The notes under the pieces are model-generated. The model searched no databases. It had not been told where the DNA came from and saw only the letters and a program-made list of their open reading frames with translations. Shown here one piece after another: positions 2,749 through 24,445 of a DNA stretch of 64,000 nt. The DNA is from Naegleria gruberi (Eukaryota): the NCBI GenBank assembly GCA_000004985.1, contig GG738854.1; one strand, 5' to 3'. The translations under genes were made by a program, and so were the position numbers. Position 1 is the first letter of the stretch. Each line of letters starts with the position of its first letter.

Positions 2749-4701
2749 TCAATCTCTTTTATTGACAAGTTCAAAAGATGCAACATTAGAATACGATGTC
2801 AAATATTTGCAAATTGATTCACATGATTTGAAAGATTGCTGATTATCAAGAATGAAACTGAGACATGAAATGATTCTATCGCAAGAAACATCATGATTCT
2901 TAAATTCCTGCTCTGAGAATTGTTTCAATATTTGGAATGCATGACCAACATATCCAACAGCATCAGATTGTGAAAGATTTTCATGAGCTTTCCAATATTG
3001 AGTGGTGAAAAGATCAAATACCTTTGAGTATTCTTGGAATTTGTTATTCTTTTTGGAATTTTCCAAAGAGTACAACCATTCGTCATCTTGATCATCTAAC
3101 TTTTGAGCAATGACATCATATATTGTGAAAATTGAATCGTCTGAAGTTTCGGTTACTTTTTGAATCCTATCTAGAGGTCTATACACTAATTTCTGTGAGG
3201 AGGAAATTGAGCAATCGTCAGTAATGATTTTAACATTGAATTTAGAGGCCAATTGAGAGGTCTTTGCCTGTTCAGAAACTGAGCCAACCATACTGAAATA
3301 TCTTGCAGTTGAAGATCCAATATTTCCAACATAACCATCTCCAATAGAAACACCAACCCTGGCTGTGATTTTCTTTTGTAAACTTTCAATTACCTTTACA
3401 ATTTTCAAAGCTGCATCAAATGCCTTTTCTTGAAGTCTTACATCTACACTGTTACTATTCAGTGATAATTGAAATTCATCACATGAGAAGACGTTTAAAT
3501 TTCCTTGAGATAGTTTTACAATTGGACCAAGAAGGTTTACAATATCTCCAAAAATAGTTGTAATACTGTCAGGAGATTTTGATGACAGTCCATCAATTTT
3601 GACATGAATAACTGCACAACCCTTCTTGGATAAACCCATCTTGAATAAATTGGAGGCGTGCTGACCCTTTTTCATTGTGCTCTTACTTGAAAAGTGACTT
3701 CTGGAGGCGTTTGAGGCAGAAATTGAATTTCTTGATATTTCTGCATTCTTTTCCAATTCTTGTTGATTTTCAACATGTTCTAAGTGTTCATTTTGAATCT
3801 GTTCAAATACTGATTGAGGAATGAAAGTTTTAATTTCAGCAAGCCACTCAACTGTATTCTTCAAATTATTGAAAATTGAGTTCACTTCTCTAAACATGGA
3901 ACTGTTATTCGAAACACTACCCAAATCAAGAACTTTGATTCTTTCGAATTGCTTCTCCAAGAACTTCATAGGTCTCGAAACAACTAGTCCAGTAACAAAA
4001 CTTCCAACAATTCCAAGAACAATAATTCCAACAGTGACACCAATAGAAATTGAAGTTGTCAAAATCAAAGCTTCAGTCACCTCTGATTCGTACAAAACAA
4101 AGAAAATGTTCCACTGCATATTTTCCAAAACATACTTGTACGGAGTAATGATATAGCTAACACCATCAGATTCTCCCACAATTTTCATCACAGATGGCAA
4201 AATACTAAATGTTCTATTGTTCAACTCGTAGAATTGTTTCATTAGTGAACCAGCATTTCTCGACTTGACATCAAAGATGTTTGTGCTATTTAAACCATCT
4301 CCTGAAATGGTATCGATGGATCCACCAATGACAATGAAATTGTCCTGAGCTACCAGAACGTAACCTCTTCCCAGTAATTCAATCTTGGAGAGAAAGTTTA
4401 CAATCGTTTCTAGTGAAAGATTAACTTTGGCCAATCCAACCAATGATTTCGTCTTGTTTAGTTTGTAAATTTCTGGATCGTACATTAATTGAGAATAATA
4501 AATGGCAACTGTACTTCCCAAAACCTTGTATGGTTCTCCATACACTCCTTCCAACCCCTTTTCGTAATAGTTTTTCAATGTATAAATGAAGAAATCTTGT
4601 TTGGCAGGTACGTAAGGAGTCAAGTCAACTGTAGAATTGACTTTTACAATGTCTCCTGTGGTGATGTTCACAATATCTCTCAATGGTGCCTGGATATCCA
4701 A
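2749..4701 (-). CDS. receptor-type protein: extracellular dCache-like sensor, TM, and degenerate class III nucleotidyl-cyclase homology domain (downstream part, after the transposon insertion)
   Basis: The long minus-strand ORF continues the dCache-like ectodomain (YGEPYKVLGSTVAIYYSQLMYDPE...GYVLVAQDNFIVIGGS). A TM segment follows (ILTTSISIGVTVGIIVLGIVGSFVTGLVV). The C-terminal region has cyclase-homology motifs (AVIHVKIDGLSS..., RVGVSIGDGYVGNIGSSTARYFSMVGSVSEQAKTSQLA) but lacks several canonical catalytic residues. The ORF-track start at 4848 lies inside the inserted element, so the true upstream exon is 5414-5998. Confidence 0.55.
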   Translation of the reverse strand: MDIQAPLRDIVNITTGDIVKVNSTVDLTPYVPAKQDFFIYTLKNYYEKGLEGVYGEPYKVLGSTVAIYYSQLMYDPEIYKLNKTKSLVGLAKVNLSLETIVNFLSKIELLGRGYVLVAQDNFIVIGGSIDTISGDGLNSTNIFDVKSRNAGSLMKQFYELNNRTFSILPSVMKIVGESDGVSYIITPYKYVLENMQWNIFFVLYESEVTEALILTTSISIGVTVGIIVLGIVGSFVTGLVVSRPMKFLEKQFERIKVLDLGSVSNNSSMFREVNSIFNNLKNTVEWLAEIKTFIPQSVFEQIQNEHLEHVENQQELEKNAEISRNSISASNASRSHFSSKSTMKKGQHASNLFKMGLSKKGCAVIHVKIDGLSSKSPDSITTIFGDIVNLLGPIVKLSQGNLNVFSCDEFQLSLNSNSVDVRLQEKAFDAALKIVKVIESLQKKITARVGVSIGDGYVGNIGSSTARYFSMVGSVSEQAKTSQLASKFNVKIITDDCSISSSQKLVYRPLDRIQKVTETSDDSIFTIYDVIAQKLDDQDDEWLYSLENSKKNNKFQEYSKVFDLFTTQYWKAHENLSQSDAVGYVGHAFQILKQFSEQEFKNHDVSCDRIISCLSFILDNQQSFKSCESICKYLTSYSNVASFELVNKRD

Positions 4702-4761
4702 GAGGGTAATATGTATCCGTGTTATCCAGCCAACGCTGGATTGAAAGGATTTTGTCAGATG
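4702..4761. repeat. left terminal inverted repeat of the MITE
   Basis: 60/60 match to the reverse complement of 5354-5413. Confidence 0.9.
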
Positions 4762-5353
4762 GGATCCACTGTAAGTGGATCCCATCAAGACAAAGCCAGG
4801 ATAAAATGGATAATGGATGGATATTTCCGATTTTATTGGATTCTGCAAAATACAATTTAGTACACAGAAGAGCTGCTATTATTTCAGTTGGCAAACTAAC
4901 ACAGAAAGACTCATATCTACAAGCAACAGATCCAATTCATCACGTGAATCAAGTCAACATATTGGAATTGGTAGAATTGGTAGAATCGGAAGTTAATCAC
5001 AAATTTATTCATCTAGTGATTGTATTAAGAGAGATCAAACAAAAATAACAATAAATGATATGATTATAATTCAAATTGGAAATAGTTGGAAAAAAAGCAA
5101 GATTTAATAGAAGAGTTTGAGTGAATGTGCAGTGTTATTTTCTTTGCAGAACTAATAAGAAATGCACAAGATGGTAAATTGCAAGATCTTAGCCATGAAT
5201 TCCATTGGCTATACGAAAGTTTTGAATCAGTTTAATGATGGTATTGATTGGTTACTCGCCCCCCTTTAATTTTATCCATTAAATCCAGATTTTTCCTTGA
5301 TTTATCTGATTTATCCAGATAAAAATCCACTGGCAGTCGACGGAATCCACTTA

Positions 5354-5413
5354 CATCTGACAAAATCCTTTCAATCCAGCGTTGGCTGGATAACACGGAT
5401 ACATATTACCCTC
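5354..5413. repeat. right terminal inverted repeat of the MITE
   Basis: 60/60 match to the reverse complement of 4702-4761. Confidence 0.9.
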
Positions 5414-5998
5414 ATATCCAAAAGGTTGATAGGCAAAAACTGGAAATGGATTACTCGTGGTTCCACTAATAGTATAGGTGTATCTGGATGGGAGAGGAAC
5501 ACTGAAGAAGAATCCACAACCAGTAGTTCGAAATTCTACAAACTTTGGAAACAAGTAATTTCTAAACATGGGAATGGTCACAACACCTGTGGTATATTCT
5601 CTGGCCATGGTTTTGGTCAATTTGGCGATTGGTGTCATAACACCATCTAGATAGGTTATAATCTTTCTTCCAGATTCGTTTATGAGCTTGGTCGACAAAT
5701 CATTAATTGCCTTCTCTGTTACCAGATAAGAAGATAGCCAAACCAATAAACACCCACTTAGAATCATTACTGAAATAATTGAAACAATAAAGAGATTGAG
5801 TGGAATAATACCTGTGCAGCAAGTACGCGGCTGTGTCTTTGGATTGAGTGGTTCTTTGATGGCCACAACGGATGGAGTTGTCTGTTCCTCATACTCACTT
5901 CCTGATGGTGCAACTTTAGTCATTGAAACTGAAGGATGATGATGATGTTTTTTCTTATTGTTTTTCAATACAATTACGAAAGAGCTGCTAATTTGCAT
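5414..5998 (-). CDS. 5' exon of the same receptor gene (N-terminus, signal-anchor TM, start of the dCache domain), separated from the rest by the MITE
   Basis: ORF 5351-5998 (-) encodes MQISSS...HHHH, then a TM (IISVMILSGCLLVWLSSYLV), then a Cache-like start (EKAINDLSTKLINESGRKIITYLDGVMTPIAKL...). It reads straight into the element TIR and stops after 19 TIR-encoded codons. The flanking frames differ by +1 even after in-silico excision. Confidence 0.5.
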
Positions 5999-6183: not shown

Positions 6184-7924
6184 TTGAAAACTATTCAACA
6201 AATCTCGTGCTTGAGTACTCTCCAATTAAAAATGTCGGAACCAACTAACAGCAACATTCTGGACGGCACGCAAGAAATTACGTGGGAGGAAACGCCTAAT
6301 AAAGAAGCCGAGGAAATTGAAGAAATACTTCGACGATTTTTGCACTCATTGTGTGATATTTATAATACAAAGTCTAAAACAAATCATACAATCGGTGCTA
6401 TATGTGATACAATTTTCACCAAGAATGGAATTGAGTTGTTTGTTGATAGTTGCACAGAGAGTAAGGCAAAAGGAATTGAAATAATTGAACAATTATTAAT
6501 GATGGAGCCTGCTAATAGTTGTTGTGAAGGGAAAATTATTGAGGAGGAGATTCAACAACTAAATCACAACGACAACACTAGTACCTACAAAAAAGTACTG
6601 GCTGAAGAAAATAGAACATTCTTGGATCAACATAATGTAAAGTTGGATGATAATACTTTCAATTTTTGTGTAAACTTTCAAATATGTTTCAAGATTGAAC
6701 CAACAACCAGTAATATTGCAGACACAACAAGGATTTCCAGATTTGATGGCACTTCTTCATCCAATACTCGAATATTTTCTCTATTCGATCCTTTATTAAA
6801 CTATTCTAAATTCACAAAAGCTGGAATAGAAAACGAGTGGACATATCTGACTTGCATTATTGAAAATGCATGTTTAAGTAACGATCAGCTTTTATTCCAA
6901 ACGTAAGTACTAGTTCTGTTTAAAACAACAACTTTGAAGAGATGGCCCCTTTAACATGGTAGACGAATGTTTGGATCGAGCCCTGAAATTTTGTGACATC
7001 CCATCCTATTCTTTCACGTCATCTTTGAAAAGGGATTGTCATGTAATTGCTTCAGTTGATACCACTCTAAATCACATATGCCTTGTTATAGAACACCAAC
7101 GAGACAATTGCTCTTCCATTTGGAAACACAAAGACTTTGCAAAAATCCTCTTATTGATGAGAACATGTTTGAAATCTTCCATGTTAACAGCTCAAAGAAA
7201 CAGAAAACATTGCCCAAAGCCGTTAAGAACATTTGGAATTTTGTCTTCTAGAGACAATATATTCATACTCTGCATGCAAGCCGATTTACTTTCTGTTGAG
7301 AATGTTCAAATCGAGACTTTTGGAATTGAGTACGCATTGACCTCACATGCATTCTCGTTGAACAAAGAAGAGGAAAGAGAACAATTTATCGAGAAACTTA
7401 CAGCTCATTTAGATTATTTCAGAGCTATTTCTCTTGTTGAAAAGGAATACCAATTTTTGTCATCACCTAACACATCAATAAGCAAATTGAGAAGAGGACG
7501 CTCTGTGATGGTTTATGAAAGTTTTTTAACATCAGATAATAATATGATCAATGTTTATCCACAACTTTCAAGTATGAAAGAATATTTCAAAAATTATGAT
7601 TTTGAATTCAAAAAAGAAATTGGTATTGAAAAACCAATGTTTGAAAAGCAAACAACACATTTAGCGGTTATCCCTTATTCGAAACTGAATGAATTTGAGT
7701 TGAATTCGTACACCAAAGTAATGGTTGTTGGTTTTGTAGCAACAACCAATTTGCAAGGTTTTATATTTACTAAAAACAAAACTTCCAAATTGCAAAAAAA
7801 GGATTCAAATTATACAAAATATACTGCTGATGATGAAGAAAAATTGACAAAGATGATGAAGATTACAAAGAAAAACCAAATACATTCAATAAGAGAAATA
7901 GGAATACCAAAGGAACAGGATTAA
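6184..7924 (+). CDS. hypothetical protein, two exons (6184-6902, 6940-7924)
   Basis: ORF 6184-6906 ends at a GTAAGT donor (6903). The acceptor AG at 6938-6939 restores the frame into ORF 6956-7924 via a 37-nt intron. No recognisable domain. Confidence 0.45.
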
Positions 7925-7974
7925 AGAAACAAAAAGTATCAACCATCACCAAAGAAATTAATTACTCTGATAAT

Positions 7975-8781
7975 TTGAAAGAAATAGTTCAAGGATATGG
8001 AATTAATGGTAAAACAGCTACCAAAATACGAAATAATGACAAGATAGCTCTATATTTTAAACTTGAAAGTGGGTTTTTAAAGATAGTTCACTATTTTGAT
8101 AATAGTTCAGAGAATGTGAATGGTATGGAAATTGTCAAATCCATTCAACATGACAATATTAATAAGATTTTTCAATTTAAGAAACACTCTATAACTAGTT
8201 CGCAATTGGATGAATTGTTTTTTGAAAGCATTCCACTTACAACCCAATTAGAACCAACAATTTTTGTAACATTTTCACAATTTGTTGGGGATATTGTTAC
8301 TTTCTATATTTACCTTAACCAGAAAGATTTCAACACCAAGTTATTGTGTTTTATCAAGTTAATGATGGACGCTATTGAGGCAATTAACATTTTACATGAA
8401 AATAACATTATTCATAGTGATATTTCTATTAGAAATGTTGGTGTGTTATTTACAAAACCTGTCATGACAGCTCATGCCAAAGAAAAAAGTACAATACTGG
8501 AACAATTGCCGAAAGTTTCTAACTTTAATTTCATTTTACTTGATTTCAATCATTGTAAAGTGGAAGGACAAGAACAAGCCACATTTCCAGAATGTAACAA
8601 CAATTCTGAAAATATGTTCTTTCCATTTATATCAGAGCCATACTGTCCTCCAAACGAATTAGTTCAATTTACAAAAGAACATGATTATTATAGTATTGGA
8701 TTAGTGTTGGCACAATTATTTTTGACAATTGTTTGCAATGTGCCAATTTCTAAAATTTTTAAATGTAAAAGGGAAATTTAA
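7975..8781 (+). CDS. protein kinase-like domain protein, possibly degenerate (pseudokinase-like)
   Basis: 268-aa ORF with kinase subdomain-like motifs: Gly-rich loop region (QGYGINGKTATK), catalytic-loop-like IHSDISIRNVGV, DFN in place of DFG (LDFNHCK), and an APE-region-like YYSIGLVLAQLF. It lies only 50 bp after the stop of the preceding ORF, so it may belong to the same transcription unit. Confidence 0.45.
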   Translation: MKEIVQGYGINGKTATKIRNNDKIALYFKLESGFLKIVHYFDNSSENVNGMEIVKSIQHDNINKIFQFKKHSITSSQLDELFFESIPLTTQLEPTIFVTFSQFVGDIVTFYIYLNQKDFNTKLLCFIKLMMDAIEAINILHENNIIHSDISIRNVGVLFTKPVMTAHAKEKSTILEQLPKVSNFNFILLDFNHCKVEGQEQATFPECNNNSENMFFPFISEPYCPPNELVQFTKEHDYYSIGLVLAQLFLTIVCNVPISKIFKCKREI

Positions 8782-9295: not shown

Positions 9296-12202
9296 ATGGT
9301 GGAAAGAAAACAAAAAAAAATGGCTCCAAAGCGAAAGCTTGATTTTCTAACGATTGAAATTGAAGCTAACCATGATCAACCACCAGTAAAATTATCAAAA
9401 CCATCATCATCATCAGAAGAAGAAGAAGACAATGTAATAATTATTTTGGATGAAACACATGCTTCCGATTGGCTAGAAATTAAACTCCAAAGCACACAAT
9501 TTCTTGTGGCTCTCCTTCCACAATTAGATTCATTTCTACAAGAATTTGGCTACACCATCATTGATGATCCGATGGTGAGAAGTTGTCTGGCTAGAATTAC
9601 TGGAAAATGTTTGTTGCCCAATTCCGAACGTTATGCAGAGTTTGGCAAAATTAATTTAAAAGCACAAAGGCTTATTATTAGTGATAGAACTTTTGTTCTA
9701 CACCTTTCCGATTCGCTGTACAGGCTGGGTGAATCCTATATTCAATCAATAGGAGCAGCTTATCATAATGATATTGATGTGGTTTATCGATACAAAAACC
9801 ATTTAAACAAATTTATCTTCATGAAACCATCAACTGCTATTCAATTGTTAAGAAAAAATCCTCAAACTCTGTTATCGATTCCTGAAAGATTTTATGAAGA
9901 TTCTGAATTTCTTTCAGAGGCTATTTCTACAGAAATAGAACTATTGGAAAAAATTCAAGATCCTACCAAGAATGAATTATTAATACCCCCAATACTACTA
10001 TGTCAAAACAAAGTTCTTACGAAAGCACTTGAACTTGGATTATTCAAGCCAGTTAAAAGTAGTATCCAATACGAAAGTTTAAACAACAGAGAATTAGTAA
10101 TTACTTTACTCAATTTTGGATGTGATGTAATGTTGTATAGTATTTTACAACTTTATTCCAACGACAAAGAAATTTTAAAGATATGTAATGAGAAGTTTCC
10201 ATATTTAATTAACAACAACCAATATTTGAATCTTGTAGAATCTCCAACTAGCTTCAAGTATCTCGACCATGAAACTAGAAACGACAAGGATTTTGTTTTG
10301 AAAATAGTTGAAAAATGTCAGATTTATAATTACCTTTCTTCTGATCTTCAGAAAGATCGTAGTATTGCTTTAAAAGCAGTCCGTGGAAACCCTGGTTATT
10401 ACAAGTACTTACCCAGAGAGCTCAGACGTGACAATGAGATCGCTTGCATAGCAATTTCTAATAATCCAGACATGTACTTTTATGTATCAGAGAATTTGAA
10501 AGATGACCATAATATTATTGAAATTTTCAAAAATAACATTCACAAGTTGAGTCATTTTCATATTGATTTAAGATATTTACCTCCTGATTTTAGAAAAGAT
10601 AAGGAAATAGTATTAAAATCAGTTAAAAGTAGTGGGGAAATGATATTATTGGCATCAGAAGAATTATTAAACGATAGAGAAGTACTTTTATTGGCCTGCA
10701 ACACATATACATACTATTACGACAAGAAAGATTTTAGAATTCCATACTTTATTCCAGAAACATTTCGAAAGGATGCCTCCTTTATGTTAGAAATATCAAA
10801 GACAAATCCTATTTGTTTTGAGTTGGTTCATGAGGAATTAAGGAACGACAAGACTTTTCTATTAGACTTTTTCAAGGTAATTGAACGATTTCTCAACATG
10901 GCATTAACTACAGATGATGATGATTATAACGATCGAGATAACGTTGAAAAATTGATTATGCAAAACGTCTTTAAACTCATTCCTAACAAACTTCTTAATG
11001 ATAGGAATTTTTTATTGGAATCTCTAGAAATTAATGTGACATTGATTAATTTCTTTCCTTATGAATGGGGAAATGATATTTCAGTCATAACATTAGTGTT
11101 GAAACAGAAGCCTGAATATTATAACAATTTAACCAACTTTAGGGAACACAAGGATATTGTCATGCTAGCGCTTGCTGATCCAAATATGAAGATTCCATCT
11201 AAATTCATGTCTGACAAAGATATTGTAATGAAAGCAATGGAATATAATGCATCAAAAACATTTAAAGTAGCTCACAAAAAACTACAAAAAGATAGAGATG
11301 TAATTTTACATTATTTAACGCACAATACTAATAGCTGTTATGGGCAGACCATCAATGATATATTTTTTCAAAATCCAAACCTACGAAATGACCGTGAAGT
11401 AATGCTAGCTCTTTTGCAACATAGAATGTTGCACTTTAAACATATTGACGAAAAATTGAAAAAAGATCCAGAGTTTGCTTTCCAACTGATTGAAAAAAAA
11501 TGTAATGTTGATGTAAGAGGAACTAAAATATCAAAACAAGAACTCATGAAAGCAAATTCCATTGATTCATTCATAGAATTTTATCTCAAAGATGAAGATG
11601 ATTCACACTTTTCTTCTGTCAAGAAACAAGTATTTGGTGCATTAATCAAGCTTTTTTCTAATGAGAAAAGAGTAACAGAATCACTTAAGGTTCACCACCA
11701 AAATTTATTTAAAAATGACAAAGAATTTACATTACAATGCTGTTTGTATGAAGGATTTGGTTCCTGTCTGGGTAACGCATTTGTAAATGATGTGGAGTTT
11801 ATGAAAAGAGCAACTTTATTGAATTTCAATAATGTAATATACTCAAAAGATTTCTTCATGGAATGTTGGACAAGTTACTTAAATGAAAAACTGAATTACA
11901 AACGAATGAGGAAGTGTTTCAATTATTTGAGTAGTCATTCTTTTGATACAACAGGATGGAACGAGGACCCACGATCACAAAGGGTAAACACTTATTTGGA
12001 TTCAAATATTTTGAAAGGTTGTAATCGTGTGACTACTGAAACTAGATCTACTATTTTAAAATTTTTGACAGGTATTTCAATTCTTGAAGAAAAAGTTCTC
12101 ATTCACGAAGAAGTCACTGATGGTCAAAAGATAAAAATTTACTTCCATATGGATCACACAAACAAAAAATGGAAAAAGATTATGCAGAAGCAATCCCTAT
12201 AA
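9296..12202 (+). CDS. large DUF4116-repeat protein (968 aa)
   Basis: About 15 tandem ~40-50 aa repeats of the form D[KR][DE][IVF][VAL]LxAVxxN...L....LxxD (e.g. DKDFVLKIVEKCQ, DRSIALKAVRGNPGYYKYLPRELRRDNEIACIAISNNPDMYFYVSENLKDD). This is the DUF4116 pattern. Confidence 0.65.
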   Translation: MVERKQKKMAPKRKLDFLTIEIEANHDQPPVKLSKPSSSSEEEEDNVIIILDETHASDWLEIKLQSTQFLVALLPQLDSFLQEFGYTIIDDPMVRSCLARITGKCLLPNSERYAEFGKINLKAQRLIISDRTFVLHLSDSLYRLGESYIQSIGAAYHNDIDVVYRYKNHLNKFIFMKPSTAIQLLRKNPQTLLSIPERFYEDSEFLSEAISTEIELLEKIQDPTKNELLIPPILLCQNKVLTKALELGLFKPVKSSIQYESLNNRELVITLLNFGCDVMLYSILQLYSNDKEILKICNEKFPYLINNNQYLNLVESPTSFKYLDHETRNDKDFVLKIVEKCQIYNYLSSDLQKDRSIALKAVRGNPGYYKYLPRELRRDNEIACIAISNNPDMYFYVSENLKDDHNIIEIFKNNIHKLSHFHIDLRYLPPDFRKDKEIVLKSVKSSGEMILLASEELLNDREVLLLACNTYTYYYDKKDFRIPYFIPETFRKDASFMLEISKTNPICFELVHEELRNDKTFLLDFFKVIERFLNMALTTDDDDYNDRDNVEKLIMQNVFKLIPNKLLNDRNFLLESLEINVTLINFFPYEWGNDISVITLVLKQKPEYYNNLTNFREHKDIVMLALADPNMKIPSKFMSDKDIVMKAMEYNASKTFKVAHKKLQKDRDVILHYLTHNTNSCYGQTINDIFFQNPNLRNDREVMLALLQHRMLHFKHIDEKLKKDPEFAFQLIEKKCNVDVRGTKISKQELMKANSIDSFIEFYLKDEDDSHFSSVKKQVFGALIKLFSNEKRVTESLKVHHQNLFKNDKEFTLQCCLYEGFGSCLGNAFVNDVEFMKRATLLNFNNVIYSKDFFMECWTSYLNEKLNYKRMRKCFNYLSSHSFDTTGWNEDPRSQRVNTYLDSNILKGCNRVTTETRSTILKFLTGISILEEKVLIHEEVTDGQKIKIYFHMDHTNKKWKKIMQKQSL

Positions 12203-12479: not shown

Positions 12480-14093
12480 ATGGTAGTCACTGAACTAAGC
12501 TCTTCACTTGATGGTTTATTTCAAGTCATGTACCTAATCATTGGCTTAGTACTAATTTATATCATGATTCATACCTTTAGATTTATAAGAATCTACTTGA
12601 AATATAAACACATACCTGGTTATGTCTCATTCTTCCCTTCAATTATAGATTCACTCATGCATGGAGATCCAATGTTTGTTTACTATGGTTATTTGTGTAG
12701 CATGCAAGCTTTTACAAAACATCCAAATGCAGCAATGATTAAAGTTCAACAAGGATCAGAGATATTTTTCACAATAGCCAGGGATAAGGAAATGATCAAG
12801 GATGTTCTTGTTAGAAAGTATAAATCTATTGGAAAGGGTGAGCTATTGGCTCCAGTTGGTTTGTTTGGAGCGAATCTATTCTCAGCTGATTCTAATAATC
12901 CACTTTGGAAAAAGCACAGAACATTGGCTAATCCAGTATTCAGTAACAGTTCTCATTTAAGGAATGTTTTTAGAGTTACAATGGAGGAATTAGCAAAGAT
13001 GATTCCATACTGGACCAAATATAATGATTCAGATTCTAATGGAAATATTCGAAATGTTAACACTACACAAGAGTTGAAGTCTATTACATTAAGCATTATC
13101 AATAGAGTTGCATTCGATTTCAATATAGAGATATTTGATAAGAATCCTGAACACAGAGACGAAGTACATGGTTGGATTTCTGATTTATTAGTTGGTTTAT
13201 TATACAAGTTTGTATTCCCTGAATGGTTATTCGAATATGTTCCTTTTGGAATTTTCAAAAGATTTAAAGATGCAAAGAATAGATTCAGAGAGACAGCCAT
13301 GAAGATGATTCTCAAAAAGACAAAGGAATATGAGAATGACAATCAAGTGAAAGAAGATGAAGATTTACTAAGCTTATTGTTGAAAAGCTCCAATAATGGT
13401 AAATTAACAGAGGAAGAACGTTTGACAAATGACGAATTGGTTAGTGCCATTTTCATTATTTTCTTTGCTGGATTTGAAACAAGTTCCAATTCTTTGAACT
13501 TCATGTTGAGATTGTTGGCAACCAGACCAGAAATACAAGAAAAACTCATTGAAGAAATTGATAATGAAATTCCATCCATGGATTCAATCAAATTTGAAGA
13601 TGTCACTGAAAAACTTCCATATTTGACATCATTCATTAAGGAGGCATTTAGAGCCAAACCAATTGTTGGTGATACCACAAGAATAATTACCAAGAAGGGA
13701 GGTGAAACTATTGGTGGACAAATCCTTGAAGAAGGAACGGTTGTTAACGTTGGAATATATGCTCATCATAAGCTGTCTCATAATAATGCTATGGATGATT
13801 TCAAATTTGATCGTTTCTGCATTCCAAATAATATCGAGAAGGGAACTATGGGAAATTTATCTATTGATTTCCAAAAAGAAGATTTAATTACCTTCTCTAT
13901 TGGCCCAAGGGATTGTATTGGAAGAAGAATGGCATTAATAGAAATCAAATTAATCCTTGTTTATTTGTTGAAACAATACAGGATTAAGGTTCCAGAGCAT
14001 TTGAAAGAACAACAATCAAACATCAAAGAAACATACATTATTACAAGAACTGTTTTAGAGCCATTCATATTTGATTATGAAAAGAGAGTTTAA
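12480..14093 (+). CDS. cytochrome P450 monooxygenase
   Basis: 537-aa ORF with an N-terminal membrane anchor. It has the I-helix AGFETSS, an ExxR motif (KEAFRAKP region) and the heme-binding FSIGPRDCIGRRMA (FxxGxRxCxG) near the C-terminus. Confidence 0.9.
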   Translation: MVVTELSSSLDGLFQVMYLIIGLVLIYIMIHTFRFIRIYLKYKHIPGYVSFFPSIIDSLMHGDPMFVYYGYLCSMQAFTKHPNAAMIKVQQGSEIFFTIARDKEMIKDVLVRKYKSIGKGELLAPVGLFGANLFSADSNNPLWKKHRTLANPVFSNSSHLRNVFRVTMEELAKMIPYWTKYNDSDSNGNIRNVNTTQELKSITLSIINRVAFDFNIEIFDKNPEHRDEVHGWISDLLVGLLYKFVFPEWLFEYVPFGIFKRFKDAKNRFRETAMKMILKKTKEYENDNQVKEDEDLLSLLLKSSNNGKLTEEERLTNDELVSAIFIIFFAGFETSSNSLNFMLRLLATRPEIQEKLIEEIDNEIPSMDSIKFEDVTEKLPYLTSFIKEAFRAKPIVGDTTRIITKKGGETIGGQILEEGTVVNVGIYAHHKLSHNNAMDDFKFDRFCIPNNIEKGTMGNLSIDFQKEDLITFSIGPRDCIGRRMALIEIKLILVYLLKQYRIKVPEHLKEQQSNIKETYIITRTVLEPFIFDYEKRV

Positions 14094-18621: not shown

Positions 18622-19473
18622 TTGTTATCCAATGCTTCGGATGATGAAGATATGAATCAGAGTTTCACTGCATTTCATCACAGACATTCATTCTGTCATT
18701 TGTCATTCAACACAAAACAAATGCCATCACATAAAATACGAGAAAATTCAACAACTCCATCCATCATTCTTTGTATTATCCTTGGACTTTCACTAATTCA
18801 ATGGGTATCTTCTGCATCATCTCCTCTGCCGAAATGTGCCTCCTGTGGTTCAATTCCAAGTGATTTATCATTTTGTAAAAATTATGTACCAACGAGTGGA
18901 AATATGTATGTTTGCAATCATCATTATTGATTTTAATTGTAATTGGATTGATAGTTGTATACCAGATAAATATTTAGAGGTGGAAAAGAATATTTCCAAT
19001 ATTTATGATAGTACTAATCAATTTTTGCCATTCGAAAGTTCATGTAGAGATGCTTGGAAGAATTATGCATGTGCAAGAGCTTTTCCACGATGCACAATTT
19101 CGAATAATGGAACATCGGATATCTATACTCCCTATGAAATTTGTTACTCTGTCTGTAAACAGTACGCTTACAATGTATGTAAATTGTAATTTGTGAAATT
19201 TCAATTTTTACTAATTATTGACTGTAACTATTTTGTTTCAACAATATTCAGTGTTGGGCTAGAGATGGTGGAGCAATTAATTGGGCTATTCAACCAATTT
19301 GGGATGTTGCCACATTAAACAAGAAATTGGACTATTTCTGTTCACAGGAAGTTGGATCTGATGGAGCTATTTGTTCATTGGGAGGTAAAAAAATTAATGG
19401 AGGAAATTCAATTTGGAATTCTATTACTCTTATATCTTCAATTGTTGGATTTACTTTATTAGTAGCCCTCTAA
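18622..19473 (+). CDS. secreted/membrane-tethered protein with a Frizzled-type cysteine-rich (FZ/CRD-like) domain; 3 exons (about 18622-18905, 18958-19174, 19252-19473)
   Basis: Candidate signal peptide (PSIILCIILGLSLIQWVSSASS). The Cys spacing C..C..IPSDLSFC...CRDAWKNYACARAFPRCT...PYEICYSVCKQYAYNVC...CWARDGG...C...C resembles the 10-Cys Frizzled CRD (AW..YAC..FP.C / PC...C..V...C). Introns 18906-18957 (GTATGT...TAG) and 19175-19251 (GTATGT...CAG) keep the frame. Hydrophobic C-terminus (ITLISSIVGFTLLVAL), GPI-signal-like. Confidence 0.5.
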
Positions 19474-19479
19474 AATAAA

Positions 19480-21238
19480 TTAATTTCCAAATACCACTCG
19501 GATGATATTGTTGGCATCTTTCTTGAAAAAGGAATGTTCTGCAATCTTTCTTCCATCCATTCCTTCTACGAAATAATTTGGAAGAATTGGCTTACCTGAC
19601 TCGTTCAATGTTAACTTGTCGGCAGGTATGATTGATCTGTAAAATTTGCTTACAAAACTCTTTACAGAACTGCCATGTCTCATTAGGGCAACATCTTCAA
19701 ATACCTTTACATCAACATCCTCTCTAAGTTTCAGATTCTCAGCCAATTGTGGAATATTCTGATTCACTGGATAAATGACAACTGGAGATTGTAAATTAAC
19801 AGCCTTTACAATAGCTTCCAATACACCTGTAGTGTCAAATCTTGCCAAGACAAAATCTCTGATATTCTTCAAAATTCCGACATTCTTTTCATCCTTAATT
19901 GGTTTCAACAGTTTCTAAACATTTCAATAATATGTTAAATCAGTTCCAATGCAATCAGAATTTTACAAACCTTTTCTTCCTCATCTTCGCATTCCTCAAA
20001 TGTTTTGAAATCACTATCTCCTTCATGGTAGATAATATGACCCTTCTTTCTCATGGTCTTCAAGAAACATTCTGACAAGGCAGATGTCAAAACAATCTTA
20101 TCCATATCATATCTTTCAAAGAATTTGTTAATGTACTTTGAACTGGCCTTGTGGTCAATCTTATTTAATGCATAAATGCAAGGGAATCTAAAGGCAATAA
20201 ATAGTGAGACACATGTATGAACATCTGCTTCCTCCCATTTTTCAAGAGGTTTCATATGCTTTGAAAAATCAATTTCCTTATTAGAGGTCTGATTGGAGAG
20301 TTCATCTTCAGTTTGGAACATTTTTGTAGAGATGTGATCACAGAACGCAACAATGAATTTTCTGTTACATCCATAACCACTCAATTGTTGTGAAAAGGTG
20401 TCTACAAGGGTATTTTTACATTGTCTATGTCTTCTTACGATAGTATCCCATCTATTCCACAAATTGTTAAAGATCCAATCATGAATTTCCTTTTCCAACC
20501 ATTCTACATCTCCAATAGGATCATAATTTTCAGTATTTTCTCCCTTTTCATTTGTTGTTCCACTGACATCTATCCCAATAAATTTATAATAAATTCTCAT
20601 TCAAAACATACCCAAAACATGAATCAAAACTTGAGCATGACGCAAATCATCCAAGAATTTGTTTCCCAATCCTTTACCCTAATCAAATATGAAATCATTA
20701 AGTAAAATAACCATCAAAACATACCAATGAAGCTCCTGGAATCAAACCAGCAACGTCCATCACACTAATAGGAATATATCTCACAGAGTTTACACATTTA
20801 CCATATTTTGGAGAGCAATACTTTTGTAAACCATATTCAGCACAAGGACATGGAATACTTGAACGATACAATGCAATACCCTAATTGTAATATGTAATTA
20901 TTGAAAATTATTCCAAACACAAACACCTACATTATTTGGTTCAATAGTTGTAAATGGATAACTTCCTATAATAAATATTTCATCAATAAATTCCATAATC
21001 ATCATCACTCACCAGTTTTTGCATTTGCATCCGAAATTGCATTCAAAAGAGTTGATTTACCTAAATTCCGATCATTAATTTTCTCCAATCATTATAAAAA
21101 ATCATCACACATACCCGCCGAAGGTTTTCCAATAATACCAATTTTAATAAATGAACTAATCCCAAAGTAACAGCATGAATCATTAGAGCATTAATAAATC
21201 CGAACATGAAATAAGCCCACCCACCTATTTGTACTCAT
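19480..21238 (-). CDS. Obg-family P-loop ATPase/GTPase with C-terminal TGS domain (OLA1/YchF-like), about 7 exons
   Basis: I reconstructed the exons by hand. They are a 14-nt exon (ATGAGTACAAATAG), the G1 motif IGIIGKPSAGKSTLLNAISDANAKTG, then IPISVMDVAGLIPGAS + GKGLGNKFLDDLRHAQVLIHVL (the OLA1 [31 protein letters not shown] region), then DVSGTT...DPIGDVEWLEKEIHDW..., and the C-terminal ...NYFVEGMDGRKIAEHSFFKKDANNIIRVVFGN (TGS-like). Introns are about 40-60 nt with GTAAGT/GTATGT/GTGGGT donors. Confidence 0.7.
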
Positions 21239-21588
21239 TTTTTTTCTATTTGAATTTTTATTAAAATTTTAAACTTTGCGTAAATATTTGATTTTCAAAT
21301 TCGAATTTGAAAGAAGCAACTTTCAACTTGGAATTTGAAAACAGAATGAATTTTATTATACACTGATTCAAGATCAGACATGAAGACGAACTGTGCATTG
21401 GCACTTTTCTCCACTTACCAAAATTACCAAAAATTAACAAATGCCATAAAAATCCCAAAAAGTGGATCAGTAAAAAAGGGTGGACAATTGGGACATCAGT
21501 TAAGAAGAAAAATAACAAACACAAACAATCCACCTTATTTGCAAATGAGTCTCAATCATTTATACGCAACAGACAACAATAAAACAAA

Positions 21589-22961
21589 ATGACTCAAAAC
21601 CATGAGGAGCAGCAGAATCATCAGGAGCATCATCAGATGATGGAAAACACTGCAGAGACAAACCTTACTTCCTCCATAACGAATGATGAAGATTATATTA
21701 TTGTTGATATTTGTGATTCATGTGCTGCTGCTGGAAAACAAGATTGTTCGATTTCAATGCCTCAATCAGCAATATCAATTTCAGAGAGGATAAATGTTAA
21801 GGAAAAACAAAAGCATAAACAATATCAGAAAAAGGAAAATGTTCAAAAGCAAGAGACGGTTGTGAAACAGCCAGAGATTGTGTTATTTAATACTCCAAAA
21901 CAAGTATTGGAAAAATTTAAAACTGATGGGGTACGGAAATCCAAGTTGACCTTTGATCAAATGACAATCCTATCCTTGTTTGCAGGAATATTTATTGGAC
22001 TGGCTAGTGCTTTGGGATTGGTTGTGGGTGGGAATGTACCAAGCATTGAGAAAGAAAATCCTGGATTGCAGAAATTGTTAACTGGAATGTAGGTTTAGTC
22101 TCATTTCAATTCTAATGTTGTTGAAAGTGTTTTTCCATTGGGATTGATACTTATTGTAATGACTGGTTCTGAACTATTCACAGGAAATGTATTAGTGGTT
22201 CTTATTGGGTTATTTTCAAGACGGTGGCGATCTAAAAAGTTTCTTCTCCAGTAAGTAATCAAGATTCGAGTTAATTGACCATCAAATGATTAGATATGCT
22301 TTATTCTCAAAGAATATTCTGTTCAGTTATGTTTTCAATTGTGTGGGATCGTTTTTATTTGCTTATTTCTTCATGTATTTACCTCAACCTTGTTGCTCTG
22401 CCTATTGGATTAGTTATGTGCAAACTATTTCTGAAAATAAGGTGAAAAAAGCATTTGGAAGTTTAGTTCTGCTTGGAATTATGTGCAATGTGTTAATTAC
22501 CATTGCTGTTTGGTGTGCAGCAGCAGCAACAACTCTTTCAGGGAAATTTCTTGGCATTTGGTTCCCAAGTAAGTTTAATCTACGTTCATATTTAATTGAA
22601 ACTTGACAATTTCACAGTTTTAGCATTTAGTTGTTTGGGTTATGAACAAAGCATTGCAAATGCATTCTACATTCCACTGGCAATGCTTTATGGAGCTAAT
22701 ATCACAGTATACGACTTTTTAATTACAAACATGATTCCAGTAACTATTGGAAACATTATAGGAGGTGCATTAATCAATGGGTGCCTAATGTATTATGTTC
22801 ATGATTTTAGAGTCAGAAAACCAAAGGTGATATTTTCTTGGTGTAAAAAGTTGTGGAAACGTCTCACAAGTAAGAAAGTCGAAATGTTGCCAACTACTAC
22901 TACACCAAACAAATCAATAGAAATGGATTTATCGACAAATAATATTATTGGAATAAAATAA
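21589..22961 (+). CDS. formate/nitrite transporter (FNT) family channel with a long His/Gln-rich N-terminal extension; about 4 exons
   Basis: Spliced product contains LTFDQMTILSLFAGIFIGLASALGLVVGG, the FNT hallmark LILIVMTGSELFTGN, and further TM helices (FNCVGSFLFAYFF, LLGIMCNVLITIAVWCAAAAT, ALAFSCLGYEQSIANAFYIPLAM, MIPVTIGNIIGGALINGCLMYY). Donors at about 22090 (GTAGGT), 22252 (GTAAGT) and 22568 (GTAAGT). Confidence 0.7.
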
Positions 22962-22967
22962 GCCCTA

Positions 22968-23990
22968 TTAATCAGAATATGAATCCGATAGAGCAAGTTT
23001 AGGATACTTTTTAGAAAGGAGAGATTTCAATTCTTGCTCTTGCTTCTCATTCACATCGTTATTGCTAATAAACAACTTCTTCAATTGGGATAAAAGTGGC
23101 CAATCAATAATGGTTTGACATTCTTCAAAGGTTAGTCCACAGGAGTGAAGTCTCAATGTCTCTAATTTTGGTAAGGGACTATTCTTCAATAATTCTAACC
23201 CATTTTCTCCAAAGGAATTATATGCTACTGAAAGAAACTTGAGCTCTCTGAAATTTTCACTTGAGCCAATGAGTGCAATACCTTCCTCATCTATTTCATT
23301 ATTTTCCAAGTCCAAATGAGTTAATTGCTTCAGATATTTACTCTTGGCAATATGTTCAAGTCCTGTATTACCAATAGCATTGTTATACAGATCTAAAAAT
23401 GTCAAATTACTCATTATTGGACTGTTTGCCAACATTTTTACTCCTGTTTCACCAATGTCACTGTATTCCAAGGCTAAAGTTTTCAATTTCTTCAAACAAG
23501 ATCCATCTGAAACCATATTTGCAATACCCTCACTTCCAATAGTGCAATGATTCAAGTAGAGCTCTTCTAAATTGTATAAGTATTTACTCTTAGCCAACCA
23601 CTTGGTACTGCTTTCATCCATTTCACAATTTTCCATATTCAAACATGTAGTGTTGGCAATGTTTGGACATTGACAAACAATCTTCAAATTGTAAGTCTCT
23701 GTATCTTCTTCTTCATCTTCATCCTCATCCTTGTCCTCTTCTTCAGCAATAATGCACTCGCAACCTGGTAAATCGAGTGATAATCTAACATTAGCAGAAG
23801 CTTCTTTCCATTCTTTTGAAACCAACATTGCACTTTGTAAAATAAACTTGAACTTGGAAAAGGACAAGATGTTGATCAGGACATCTTTGTAAAAGATTGT
23901 CTGCTGGTAAATTGGTGAAGAATTATTCTTTCTCTTCTTTGATGGAGGTTCCAGAAGCGTATTATCGGAAGACATTTTTTTCTCTTTCAA
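22968..23990 (-). CDS. leucine-rich repeat protein (ribonuclease-inhibitor-type LRRs) with F-box-like N-terminus and acidic linker
   Basis: 340 aa. F-box-like segment VLINILSF...SKEWKEA. Repeats of about 28 aa include LEELYLNHCTIGSEGIANM, LKTLALEYSDIGETGVKMLA, LTFLDLYNNAIGNTGLEHIA, LTHLDLENNEIDEEGIALIG and LKFLSVAYNSFGENGLELL. Confidence 0.7.
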   Translation of the reverse strand: MKEKKMSSDNTLLEPPSKKRKNNSSPIYQQTIFYKDVLINILSFSKFKFILQSAMLVSKEWKEASANVRLSLDLPGCECIIAEEEDKDEDEDEEEDTETYNLKIVCQCPNIANTTCLNMENCEMDESSTKWLAKSKYLYNLEELYLNHCTIGSEGIANMVSDGSCLKKLKTLALEYSDIGETGVKMLANSPIMSNLTFLDLYNNAIGNTGLEHIAKSKYLKQLTHLDLENNEIDEEGIALIGSSENFRELKFLSVAYNSFGENGLELLKNSPLPKLETLRLHSCGLTFEECQTIIDWPLLSQLKKLFISNNDVNEKQEQELKSLLSKKYPKLALSDSYSD

Positions 23991-24445
23991 GCTAGATATT
24001 TAAATATCTCCGCACACCATTACAATGGCCAATAAAAATATTAATAATGTAACAATACTAATAATTTATAATATTAATTAAATATTGTGGCAACGTTAAG
24101 AGAGCTGTTGAACAATAATTTCATCACCAATCCTAAAACACTTTTATAGAAAATTGGATAATTAAATTTTTCTTCACAAATTGATGGATCTAAAATTAGG
24201 CTCGTTTTTTGCTTGCAATGATTTTTGAGAAGAGTTTGAAAAAAAATATCAACAACACACTCAATATTTGTGGATTTTAATTCGCCTCTTTTATTATTGT
24301 CGTCTTTGATAATTGTTATATCATCTCATCAACGGACGATATTTGTTGGTGGATTTTATCATCATCACTATAGATTTTTTCTAATAATATATAAATATAT
24401 TTATTTAATAATTTAAAAAAGCGAGAGAAATTGATCATCTAGAAA

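What the first reader, a model, noticed from the sequence alone, without database searches (positions are those of the whole stretch)
2749..5998. dCache-TM-cyclase-homology receptor is split by the element and out of frame after in-silico excision; cyclase domain looks catalytically degenerate
The upstream exon (5414-5998) and the downstream ORF (2749-4701) encode consecutive parts of one Cache-type sensor receptor. Removing the element plus one TSD copy leaves the two parts offset by one nucleotide. The upstream frame then terminates about 25 codons later. Possible explanations are a pseudogene, an additional indel or assembly error at the junction, or a cryptic splice event that I could not find. 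Separately, the cyclase-homology domain lacks several conserved class III catalytic residues. This suggests a pseudo-cyclase receptor that signals non-enzymatically.
Basis: partly seen in the sequence, partly recalled or inferred. Interest (0 to 1): 0.5.

Follow-up and report, generated by a model that had tools for sequence, protein, structure and literature searches.

The report
Transposon-broken copy of Naegleria pseudo-cyclase receptor
One copy of a Naegleria gruberi sensor-receptor gene is interrupted by a recently inserted small DNA transposon and also carries an extra base 13 nt past the insertion, while an uninterrupted near-identical copy sits elsewhere in the same genome assembly, so this is mostly an ordinary broken gene copy, apart from an untested chance that the transposon is spliced out like an intron.

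Summary
The window is Naegleria gruberi. On the minus strand, one gene of a large Naegleria family (dCache sensor, TM, HAMP-like linker, class III cyclase-homology domain, helical tail) is interrupted. The interrupting element is 712 bp (4702-5413), non-coding, with perfect 60-nt TIRs and an 8-bp TSD (TTGGATAT). Removing the element plus one TSD copy leaves the two halves one nucleotide out of phase. I traced the offset to one extra G at 4681, 13 nt past the TSD. The decisive result is a second N. gruberi protein, EFC35967.1, on a 43.9-kb scaffold. It reads straight through the junction (…QPYGYPGTIRDIVNITTG…) and is 411/412 identical to the repaired window protein. The window copy is therefore a disrupted allele or very recent duplicate. 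The cyclase domain is real but lacks metal Asp1, the substrate Lys, and the catalytic Asn and Arg. Every relative I aligned shows the same losses, so this is an old family trait, not decay of this copy. A consensus donor (GTAAGT, 5354) and an acceptor (ACTTACAG, ending 4769) lie inside the TIRs. They define a 586-nt intron whose removal gives an open 887-codon frame, but only because the extra G is present. No transcript data were reachable.

The parts
5414..5923 (-). 5' part of the receptor CDS. The likely start is ATG 5923-5921 (MTKVAPS, as in the paralogues). It holds the cytoplasmic N-tail, TM1 (5720-5809) and the N-terminal part of the dCache ectodomain (5414-5719). The annotated model P0068 runs on into the TIR and stops at TAA 5353-5351.
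5414..5421 (.). Target-site duplication, copy 1 (ATATCCAA on +, TTGGATAT on -).
   Evidence: family D5
4702..5413 (.). 712-bp non-autonomous DNA transposon (MITE-like). All six frames are full of stops, so it has no coding capacity. It is the only copy in the window.
5354..5413 (.). Terminal inverted repeat, gene-proximal 5' arm (60 nt, perfect).
   Evidence: I1
4702..4761 (.). Terminal inverted repeat, 3' arm (60 nt, perfect).
   Evidence: I1
4694..4701 (.). Target-site duplication, copy 2.
4769..5354 (-). Candidate 586-nt intron inside the element. The donor is CAGAT|GTAAGT (5354-5349) and the acceptor is ACTTACAG| (AG at 4770-4769). Removing it gives an open 887-codon frame that retains 134 nt of element plus TSD. 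Predicted only.
4690..5409 (-). Alternative candidate intron of exactly 720 nt (= element + TSD). The donor is GAGG|GTAATA (5409) and the acceptor is ATATCCAG| (4690). It would restore the original length with Pro->Glu, but stays out of frame because of the extra G at 4681.
   Evidence: read; frames
4681..4681 (-). Extra G (minus strand ...ACC ATT G AGA GAT...) that causes the 1-nt offset. It is absent from the intact copy P0009 (…PGTIRDIV…) and from the homologue on L001 (…ACC ATT CGT GAT…).
4066..4680 (-). C-terminal part of the dCache ectodomain (RDIVNITTG… to …YESEVTEAL).
3979..4065 (-). TM2.
3793..3978 (-). Conserved juxtamembrane helical linker. It looks HAMP-like by motif only; no Pfam hit.
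3103..3648 (-). Class III cyclase-homology domain, catalytically degenerate. Asp1 -> Lys (within 3586-3612). Asp2 is retained (within 3472-3489). Asn -> Glu and Arg -> Thr (within 3259-3285).
2749..3102 (-). Conserved C-terminal helical domain (DEW.Y.LE..K.N motif) plus the stop codon. Function unknown.

Best explanation
The locus is one copy of an N. gruberi gene from a large Naegleria family of single-pass-pair receptors. The architecture is N-tail, TM, dCache ectodomain, TM, helical linker, catalytically dead class III cyclase-homology domain, and a helical tail. This copy was hit recently by a 712-bp non-autonomous cut-and-paste DNA transposon with 60-nt perfect TIRs and an 8-bp TSD. The element landed in the loop between two beta-strands of the membrane-distal dCache module. 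The copy also carries a +1 insertion (G at 4681) 13 nt past the TSD. As it stands, the unspliced message encodes only a 190-residue N-terminal stub, so this copy is most likely a null allele or young pseudogene. Function would be covered by an uninterrupted counterpart elsewhere in the same assembly that is 411/412 identical. Shown: the element anatomy, the frame offset and its cause, the domain architecture, the residue losses, and the existence of the intact counterpart. Inferred: that the insertion is recent, from the identical TIRs and the otherwise identical protein; that the two copies are alleles rather than duplicates; that this copy is non-functional; and that the dead cyclase domain signals non-enzymatically, for example as a dimerisation or scaffold module. 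The last point rests on its own conserved motifs (GN.G, R, RP) surviving across the family.
For: Organism and annotation: the window matches N. gruberi P0001 at 100%. P0068 and P0001 are adjacent models on the same 665-kb scaffold. TIRs and TSD. Frame offset. Cause of the offset. Intact counterpart: P0009 = EFC35967.1 on a 43,883-bp N. gruberi scaffold, 411/412 identical to the repaired protein and continuous across the junction; it is 100% identical to P0001 over their shared region. The homologue P0002 is a single uninterrupted ORF, so there is no ancestral intron at this site. The insertion site lies in a loop between strands E146-152 and E159-164 of the P0002 model, where pLDDT is about 90. 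Family size: 4254 hits at E<=1e-3. Domain evidence. Residue losses across 20 aligned members. Naegleria is described as mainly a heterozygous diploid with at least 81 cyclases (PMC9928731).
Against: Apart from the two lesions, both halves are fully open: 650+ codons in a 33% GC genome. The only other protein-level difference from the intact copy is one residue next to the TSD. Two lesions 13 nt apart in an otherwise identical copy are unlikely to be independent. The extra G is exactly what makes the GTAAGT...ACAG splice product in frame, which would fit a compensated, still functional allele. Allelic status is not shown: three neighbouring genes have no second NCBI member in their 90% clusters. 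No reads or transcripts could be examined.
Confidence: 0.6

Rival explanations
1. The transposon behaves as a new intron. The spliceosome uses the consensus donor GTAAGT at the inner edge of the 5' TIR (5354) and the acceptor ACTTACAG at the inner edge of the 3' TIR (4769). The mRNA keeps both TIR arms and the duplicated TSD (134 nt). The extra G at 4681 is a compensatory +1 that brings the total to 135 nt. The result is an 887-residue receptor with a 45-residue insertion in a dCache loop.
For: The splice product is open through all 887 codons. All ~10 introns I could infer in this window use GTAAGT, and several have a yUnAy-like branch motif 8-25 nt before the AG. The element has TCTTGAT 17 nt before its AG. 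The insertion falls in a surface loop of the model. Given near-identity elsewhere, the position of the +1, 13 nt past the TSD and before the first stop in the shifted frame, is hard to explain as an independent random event.
Against: Being in frame is a 1-in-3 coincidence for any one donor/acceptor pair. The inferred introns in this window are 37-75 nt, whereas this one would be 586 nt. In the pre-mRNA the TIRs form a perfect stem of more than 60 bp that also pairs donor with acceptor (dG -254 kcal/mol, z -13.7). The public annotation has no such model. No other N. gruberi protein carrying TIR-encoded peptides was found, though that search also missed P0001, so its sensitivity is poor. An intact copy exists, so selection to rescue this one would be weak.
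Confidence: 0.22
2. The extra G at 4681 is a consensus or sequencing error next to a heterozygous insertion. The true allele is then a clean 720-nt insertion. It could be removed exactly by the weaker splice pair GAGG|GTAATA (5409) and ATATCCAG| (4690), changing only Pro to Glu.
For: The 5409/4690 pair removes exactly element + TSD (720 nt; read). The intact copy shows no extra base. Assemblies are least reliable around heterozygous indels.
Against: The G is not in a homopolymer, and it lies in sequence shared by both haplotypes, where misalignment is not expected. GTAATA departs from the invariant GTAAGT donor seen in this window. The stronger GTAAGT donor downstream would compete with it.
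Confidence: 0.1
3. The two annotated models (P0068, 190 aa; P0001, 678 aa) are genuine separate genes. One would be a truncated sensor stub and the other an N-terminally truncated receptor expressed from inside the element.
For: This is how the public annotation reads. An ATG within the element opens the downstream ORF.
Against: P0001 would lack TM1 and half of the dCache fold. All full-length relatives are single ORFs. The first 28 residues of P0001 are TIR-encoded.
Confidence: 0.04

Closest known systems
Class III adenylyl/guanylyl cyclase catalytic domains (Pfam PF00211; e.g. P. aeruginosa CyaB 3R5G, human soluble AC C2 domain 4CLF)
   Same: Same fold and clear profile homology: E 2.6e-13 to CyaB and 1.7e-15 to sAC C2; Foldseek TM 0.74-0.78 to CyaB and Cya2. 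The second metal-binding Asp is retained.
   Different: Asp1 is Lys, the substrate Lys is Val, the transition-state Asn is Glu and the Arg is Thr. With one domain per chain, a homodimer has neither a complete C1-like nor a complete C2-like half-site. The window protein scores below Pfam's cut-off (15.7 vs 21.9 bits).
Bacterial dCache_1 chemoreceptor ligand-binding domains (e.g. Vibrio Mlp24, 6IOR; B. subtilis McpB/McpC)
   Same: A double-PDC ectodomain between two TM helices, followed by a helical linker. Foldseek TM 0.66-0.72; Pfam dCache_1 in 10 of 36 relatives.
   Different: The output module is a dead cyclase domain plus an uncharacterised helical tail, not a methyl-accepting domain. The host is a eukaryote. 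Ligand-binding residues were not examined.
MITE-like non-autonomous DNA transposons of the hAT or Mutator type
   Same: TIRs, an 8-bp TSD that fits the hAT target pattern nTnnnnAn (from memory), no coding capacity, and an empty site in a near-identical copy.
   Different: 60-nt TIRs starting GAGGG are long for hAT, and 8 bp is short for Mutator (usually 9-11; from memory). No transposase or further copies were available, so the superfamily is unassigned.
Transposons spliced as introns (maize Ds/dSpm insertions spliced from exons; introner elements of Micromonas, Aureococcus and others) - from memory, not re-read here
   Same: An exonic DNA-transposon insertion with host-consensus splice signals close to its ends. 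TIR pairing would bring donor and acceptor together.
   Different: No transcript evidence. Only a single copy is seen. The predicted splice leaves 134 nt of element and TSD in the message instead of removing the element cleanly.

Membership tests
Active class III nucleotidyl cyclase | Cyclase-homology fold / profile homology | tested here: met
   PDB profile search: 1.7e-15 to sAC and 2.6e-13 to CyaB. Foldseek TM 0.78 to 3r5g. Distant relatives pass Pfam PF00211.
Active class III nucleotidyl cyclase | First metal-binding Asp (F-x-D-I-x-G-F-T) | tested here: not met
   It aligns to Lys in VIHVKIDGL. The position is K, R, Q, T and similar in all 20 aligned relatives.
Active class III nucleotidyl cyclase | Second metal-binding Asp (G-D) | tested here: met
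   SCD aligns to CyaB VGD. The position is D or E in most relatives.
Active class III nucleotidyl cyclase | Substrate-specifying Lys/Glu four residues before Asp2 | tested here: not met
   Val in the window protein (GNLNVFSCD vs GTIDKFVGD).
Active class III nucleotidyl cyclase | Transition-state Asn and Arg (V-N-x-A-x-R) | tested here: not met
   GSVSEQAKT vs GREVNLASR gives Asn->Glu and Arg->Thr.
dCache_1 sensor receptor | Double PDC fold | tested here: met
   The AF2 model of paralogue P0002 (pLDDT 79.6) matches Mlp24 and McpB/C ligand-binding domains. Pfam dCache_1 matches 10 of 36 relatives, best 4.9e-10. There is no Pfam hit on the window protein itself.
dCache_1 sensor receptor | Ectodomain bracketed by two TM helices | tested here: met
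   Hydrophobic helices at 5720-5809 and 3979-4065, and long helices in the model.
dCache_1 sensor receptor | Ligand-binding pocket residues | not tested
   Not examined.
Non-autonomous cut-and-paste DNA transposon (MITE-like) | Terminal inverted repeats | tested here: met
   60 nt, 100% complementary.
Non-autonomous cut-and-paste DNA transposon (MITE-like) | Target-site duplication | tested here: met
   8-bp ATATCCAA at 4694-4701 and 5414-5421.
Non-autonomous cut-and-paste DNA transposon (MITE-like) | Empty site in a related sequence | tested here: met
   P0009 reads through the site, at protein level only. The L001 homologue has TTTGGATATCCAGG once.
Non-autonomous cut-and-paste DNA transposon (MITE-like) | Multiple copies in the genome | not testable with these tools
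   One copy in the 64-kb window. The metagenome scan gave 0 hits.
Non-autonomous cut-and-paste DNA transposon (MITE-like) | Superfamily assignment via transposase or TIR signature | tested here: inconclusive
   The 8-bp TSD fits hAT, while the long GAG-initial TIRs resemble Mutator. No transposase is available.
Transposon-derived intron (introner-like) | Functional splice signals at or near the element ends | tested here: inconclusive
   GTAAGT at 5354 and ACTTACAG at 4769 match the window's intron consensus, but their use is unproven.
Transposon-derived intron (introner-like) | Spliced transcripts | not testable with these tools
   No N. gruberi transcript data reachable.
Transposon-derived intron (introner-like) | Many near-identical copies sitting as introns in unrelated genes | not testable with these tools
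   The TIR-peptide search found only this locus, and its sensitivity is poor.

The most novel reading that the evidence does not exclude
The element is a nascent intron caught in the act. It would be a Naegleria MITE whose sub-terminal palindromes carry the host's invariant GTAAGT donor on both strands and an ACAG acceptor. It would be spliced from an exon, with a nearby +1 mutation restoring the frame, so that the receptor gains a 45-residue TIR-encoded loop. The pre-insertion state would still be present in the same genome.
Probability: 0.2. Interest if true: 0.6.

Novelty: new member of a known kind. Interest (0 to 1): 0.33.

Why it matters
As a broken gene copy it matters little biologically. 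It does correct the public annotation: NAEGRDRAFT_64468 and NAEGRDRAFT_64469 are two halves of one receptor. It also shows that a cut-and-paste transposon has been active recently in N. gruberi. The family-wide dead cyclase domain is a useful caution, because some of the many 'cyclases' counted in Naegleria genomes are probably non-enzymatic receptors. If the splice prediction holds, the locus would be a rare case with both the before and after states of transposon-driven intron gain in one genome. It would also come from a lineage (Heterolobosea) in which my literature search found no introner reports.

Tried and rejected
1. I looked for other copies of the element. There are none in the window. 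An exact 26-mer TIR scan of JGI metagenomes gave 0 hits. A protein search with concatenated TIR-encoded peptides returned only P0068, and it failed to return P0001, which should match, so this negative result is weak.
2. I tried to fetch DNA or transcripts for P0001, P0068, P0009 and the 215-aa ORF. None is on record. As a result, the intact copy is known only as protein.
3. I tested whether the 43.9-kb scaffold is a collinear haplotig by looking up neighbouring proteins. There was no second NCBI member for the P450, RGS or PLP-enzyme genes, so allele versus duplicate stays open.
4. I considered other splice pairs. 5409/4690 removes exactly 720 nt but is out of frame. 5409/4769 and 5354/4690 are out of frame. 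5354/4736 and 5354/4679 are in frame but have weaker acceptors.
5. I considered a pre-existing intron at this site. I rejected it because P0002 and P0009 are continuous there.
6. Rfam found nothing credible in the element.
8. Literature searches for Naegleria MITEs or introners found nothing relevant. The N. gruberi genome paper is not held.
Full report
**What the window is.** The downstream ORF is 100% identical to an N. gruberi predicted protein, P0001 = EFC47593.1, on a 665-kb scaffold. GC content is about 33%. The gene of interest lies on the minus strand.

**The observation.**
- ORFs 5351-5998 and 2749-4848 on the minus strand align end to end with full-length paralogues from N. gruberi, N. 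lovaniensis and a metagenome.
- Between them lies a 712-bp element, 4702-5413. Its 60-nt terminal inverted repeats are 100% complementary (I1).
- The element is flanked by an 8-bp direct repeat. It reads TTGGATAT on the gene strand, at 5421-5414 and 4701-4694.
- The TIR occurs nowhere else in the window, and none is expected by chance.
- All six frames of the element are full of stops, and Rfam finds nothing credible. It is a non-autonomous, MITE-like DNA transposon.
- Removing the element plus one TSD copy leaves 2530 nt, with length mod 3 = 1. The upstream frame then stops 22 codons later.

**Where the 1-nt offset comes from.**
- The closest homologue with DNA available is P0002, a single 2391-nt ORF on metagenome contig L001.
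- At the junction it reads TTT GGA TAT CCA GGA ACC ATT CGT GAT. The excised window reads TTT GGA TAT CCA GGC ACC ATT G AGA GAT.
- Paralogues all have G-Y/F-x-G-x-I-R-D with no length variation.
- The offset is therefore one extra G at 4681, 13 nt beyond the TSD.

**An intact counterpart exists.**
- The exhaustive profile search returned P0009, 412 aa. This is EFC35967.1 / XP_002668711.1, 'predicted protein, partial [Naegleria gruberi]', on a 43,883-bp scaffold of the same assembly.
- It reads …TSNPFPVFAYQPYGYPGTIRDIVNITTGD… without interruption.
- It differs from the window protein, once element, TSD and the extra G are removed, at one residue in 412. That residue is F->Y in the codon that overlaps the start of the TSD.
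- It is 100% identical to P0001 over their shared 292 residues.
- The window copy is therefore the derived, disrupted version of a gene that also exists intact.
- I could not decide whether the two are alleles or a very recent duplication. Naegleria is described as mainly a heterozygous diploid (PMC9928731).
- The perfect TIRs and the near-identity of the two copies indicate a recent insertion. This is an inference.

**What the protein is.**
- The family is large: 4254 proteins at E<=1e-3 and 94 at E<=1e-30.
- Pfam finds dCache_1 in 10 of 36 aligned relatives and Guanylate_cyc in 13 of 36. More distant relatives pass the Guanylate_cyc threshold.
- The window protein itself is below threshold for Guanylate_cyc (15.7 bits against 21.9) and gives no dCache hit.
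- An AlphaFold model of P0002 has mean pLDDT 79.6. It shows TM, double-PDC ectodomain, TM, long helical linker, alpha/beta domain and a helical tail.
- Foldseek matches the ectodomain to Mlp24 and McpB/C ligand-binding domains (TM up to 0.72). It matches the alpha/beta domain to CyaB, Cya2, CyaC and soluble guanylyl cyclase (TM up to 0.78).
- A 20-sequence profile of the cyclase-homology domain hits soluble adenylyl cyclase C2 at 1.7e-15 and CyaB at 2.6e-13.

**Catalytic residues.** In the HMMER alignment to CyaB the canonical positions map as follows.

| Canonical position | CyaB | Window protein | Outcome |
|---|---|---|---|
| Metal Asp1 | VFFSDIRGF | VIHVKIDGL | Asp -> Lys |
| Substrate Lys and metal Asp2 | GTIDKFVGD | GNLNVFSCD | Lys -> Val; Asp2 kept |
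| Transition-state Asn and Arg | GREVNLASR | GSVSEQAKT | Asn -> Glu; Arg -> Thr |

- The same losses run through all aligned relatives, while other motifs (GN.G, R, RP) stay nearly invariant.
- With one such domain per chain, neither a C1-like nor a C2-like half-site can be formed. This follows from the established two-metal mechanism of class III cyclases.
- The pseudo-cyclase reading is therefore supported. It is a long-standing property of the family, not evidence of decay in this copy.

- The last base of the 5' TIR plus the next five give CAGAT|GTAAGT (5354-5349). The TAA that ends the upstream ORF lies inside this hexamer.
- Just inside the 3' TIR lies GGGATCCACTTACAG| (AG at 4770-4769).
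- Splicing 5354..4769 (586 nt) gives an uninterrupted 887-codon frame.
- In this window, GTAAGT sits at the end of 13 long ORFs. For about ten of these, a short in-frame intron of 37-75 nt can be drawn. All have GTAAGT and a TAG/CAG/AAG acceptor, and several have a yUnAy-like motif 8-25 nt upstream. The element has TCTTGAT 17 nt before its AG.
- The arithmetic is notable. Element plus TSD is 720 nt. Removing 586 leaves 134 (+2), and the extra G makes 135, or 45 codons.
- The product replaces PGTI with a 49-residue segment, a net gain of 45 residues. The first 42 residues (EGNMYPCYPANAGLKGFCQIGSHLTKSFQSSVGWITRIHITL) are TIR-derived, and the last 7 (LDIQAPL) are frame-shifted TSD and flanking sequence. 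The segment sits in the loop between strands 146-152 and 159-164 of the P0002 model.
- A second pair, GAGG|GTAATA (5409) and ATATCCAG| (4690), would remove exactly 720 nt with only Pro->Glu. It is out of frame unless the extra G is an error.

**Weighing the explanations.**
- For a simple null allele: an intact copy exists. The predicted intron is about ten times longer than the others seen here. The TIRs would form a perfect RNA stem of more than 60 bp that pairs donor with acceptor (dG -254 kcal/mol, z -13.7). In-frame status is a 1-in-3 coincidence. The annotation has two separate models.
- Against independence of the two lesions: the copies are otherwise identical at protein level, yet the TE, the +1 and the only amino-acid difference all fall within about 30 nt. 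That clustering points to one mutagenic insertion event, to selection for a compensating +1, or to a consensus problem at a heterozygous site.
- I put the null allele or young pseudogene at about 0.6, the spliced in-frame allele at about 0.2, the assembly-error variants at about 0.1, and the rest on minor options.

**Novelty.**
- A transposon-disrupted copy of a multigene-family receptor is ordinary.
- Degenerate cyclase-homology domains are a known kind of thing. Splicing of exonic DNA transposons is also known (maize Ds; introners), from memory.
- The locus is worth a small follow-up. Both the empty and the filled site appear to be in one genome, and the element carries the host's exact donor consensus at the inner edge of each TIR.

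Noticed in passing
window 6903, 22569, 25625, 28558, 42256 (+); 63205, 62288, 47926, 38028 (-): Every intron I could infer in the window has an invariant GTAAGT donor and is very short (37-75 nt). 13 of the 31 GTAAGT hexamers in the window sit at the ends of long ORFs.
   Followed up: partly
window 4758-4786: The left sub-terminal region of the element holds a perfect 13-nt palindrome, GATGGGATCCACT/AGTGGATCCCATC, around GTAAGT. It amounts to a 10-nt insertion relative to the other end. As a result, GTAAGT faces inward on both strands of the element.
   Followed up: partly
window 5420-5422: The only amino-acid difference between the window copy and the intact copy P0009 is F vs Y, in the codon that overlaps the first bases of the TSD. 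Both TSD copies carry the F-type sequence. The clustering with the insertion and the +1 is unexplained.
   Followed up: partly
window 19333-24010; L002, L003: An ENA/Logan metagenome assembly (run ERR1078381, PRJEB11402) contains contigs 99.0% identical to this part of the window. A strain very close to N. gruberi NEG-M, or its other haplotype, is therefore present in that sample.
   Followed up: partly
window 9296-12202 (+): A 968-aa ORF made of about 10 DUF4116 repeats (Pfam E 4.7e-58).
   Followed up: no
window 6184-8781 (+): Three adjacent ORFs. The first two appear to be joined by a GTAAGT intron at 6903. The last has a weak, sub-threshold protein-kinase match (23.4 bits vs cut-off 31.7).
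   Followed up: no
window 2752-3102 (-) and the same region of all relatives: A conserved helical domain of about 115 residues follows the cyclase-homology domain. It has a nearly invariant DEW.YELE..K.N motif and no Pfam assignment. It may be the real output module of these receptors.
   Followed up: no
P0005 and P0003 (N. gruberi paralogues, not in window): P0005 fuses an RCC1-repeat N-terminus to the C-terminal two-thirds of a receptor. P0003 lacks about 50 residues in the core of the cyclase-homology domain. Both look like gene-model problems or further damaged family members.
   Followed up: no
window 12480-14093 (+): The cytochrome P450 gene has a >=90%-identical 537-aa variant (P0154) on a 4.7-kb ENA contig. 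This fits the related strain noted above.
   Followed up: no
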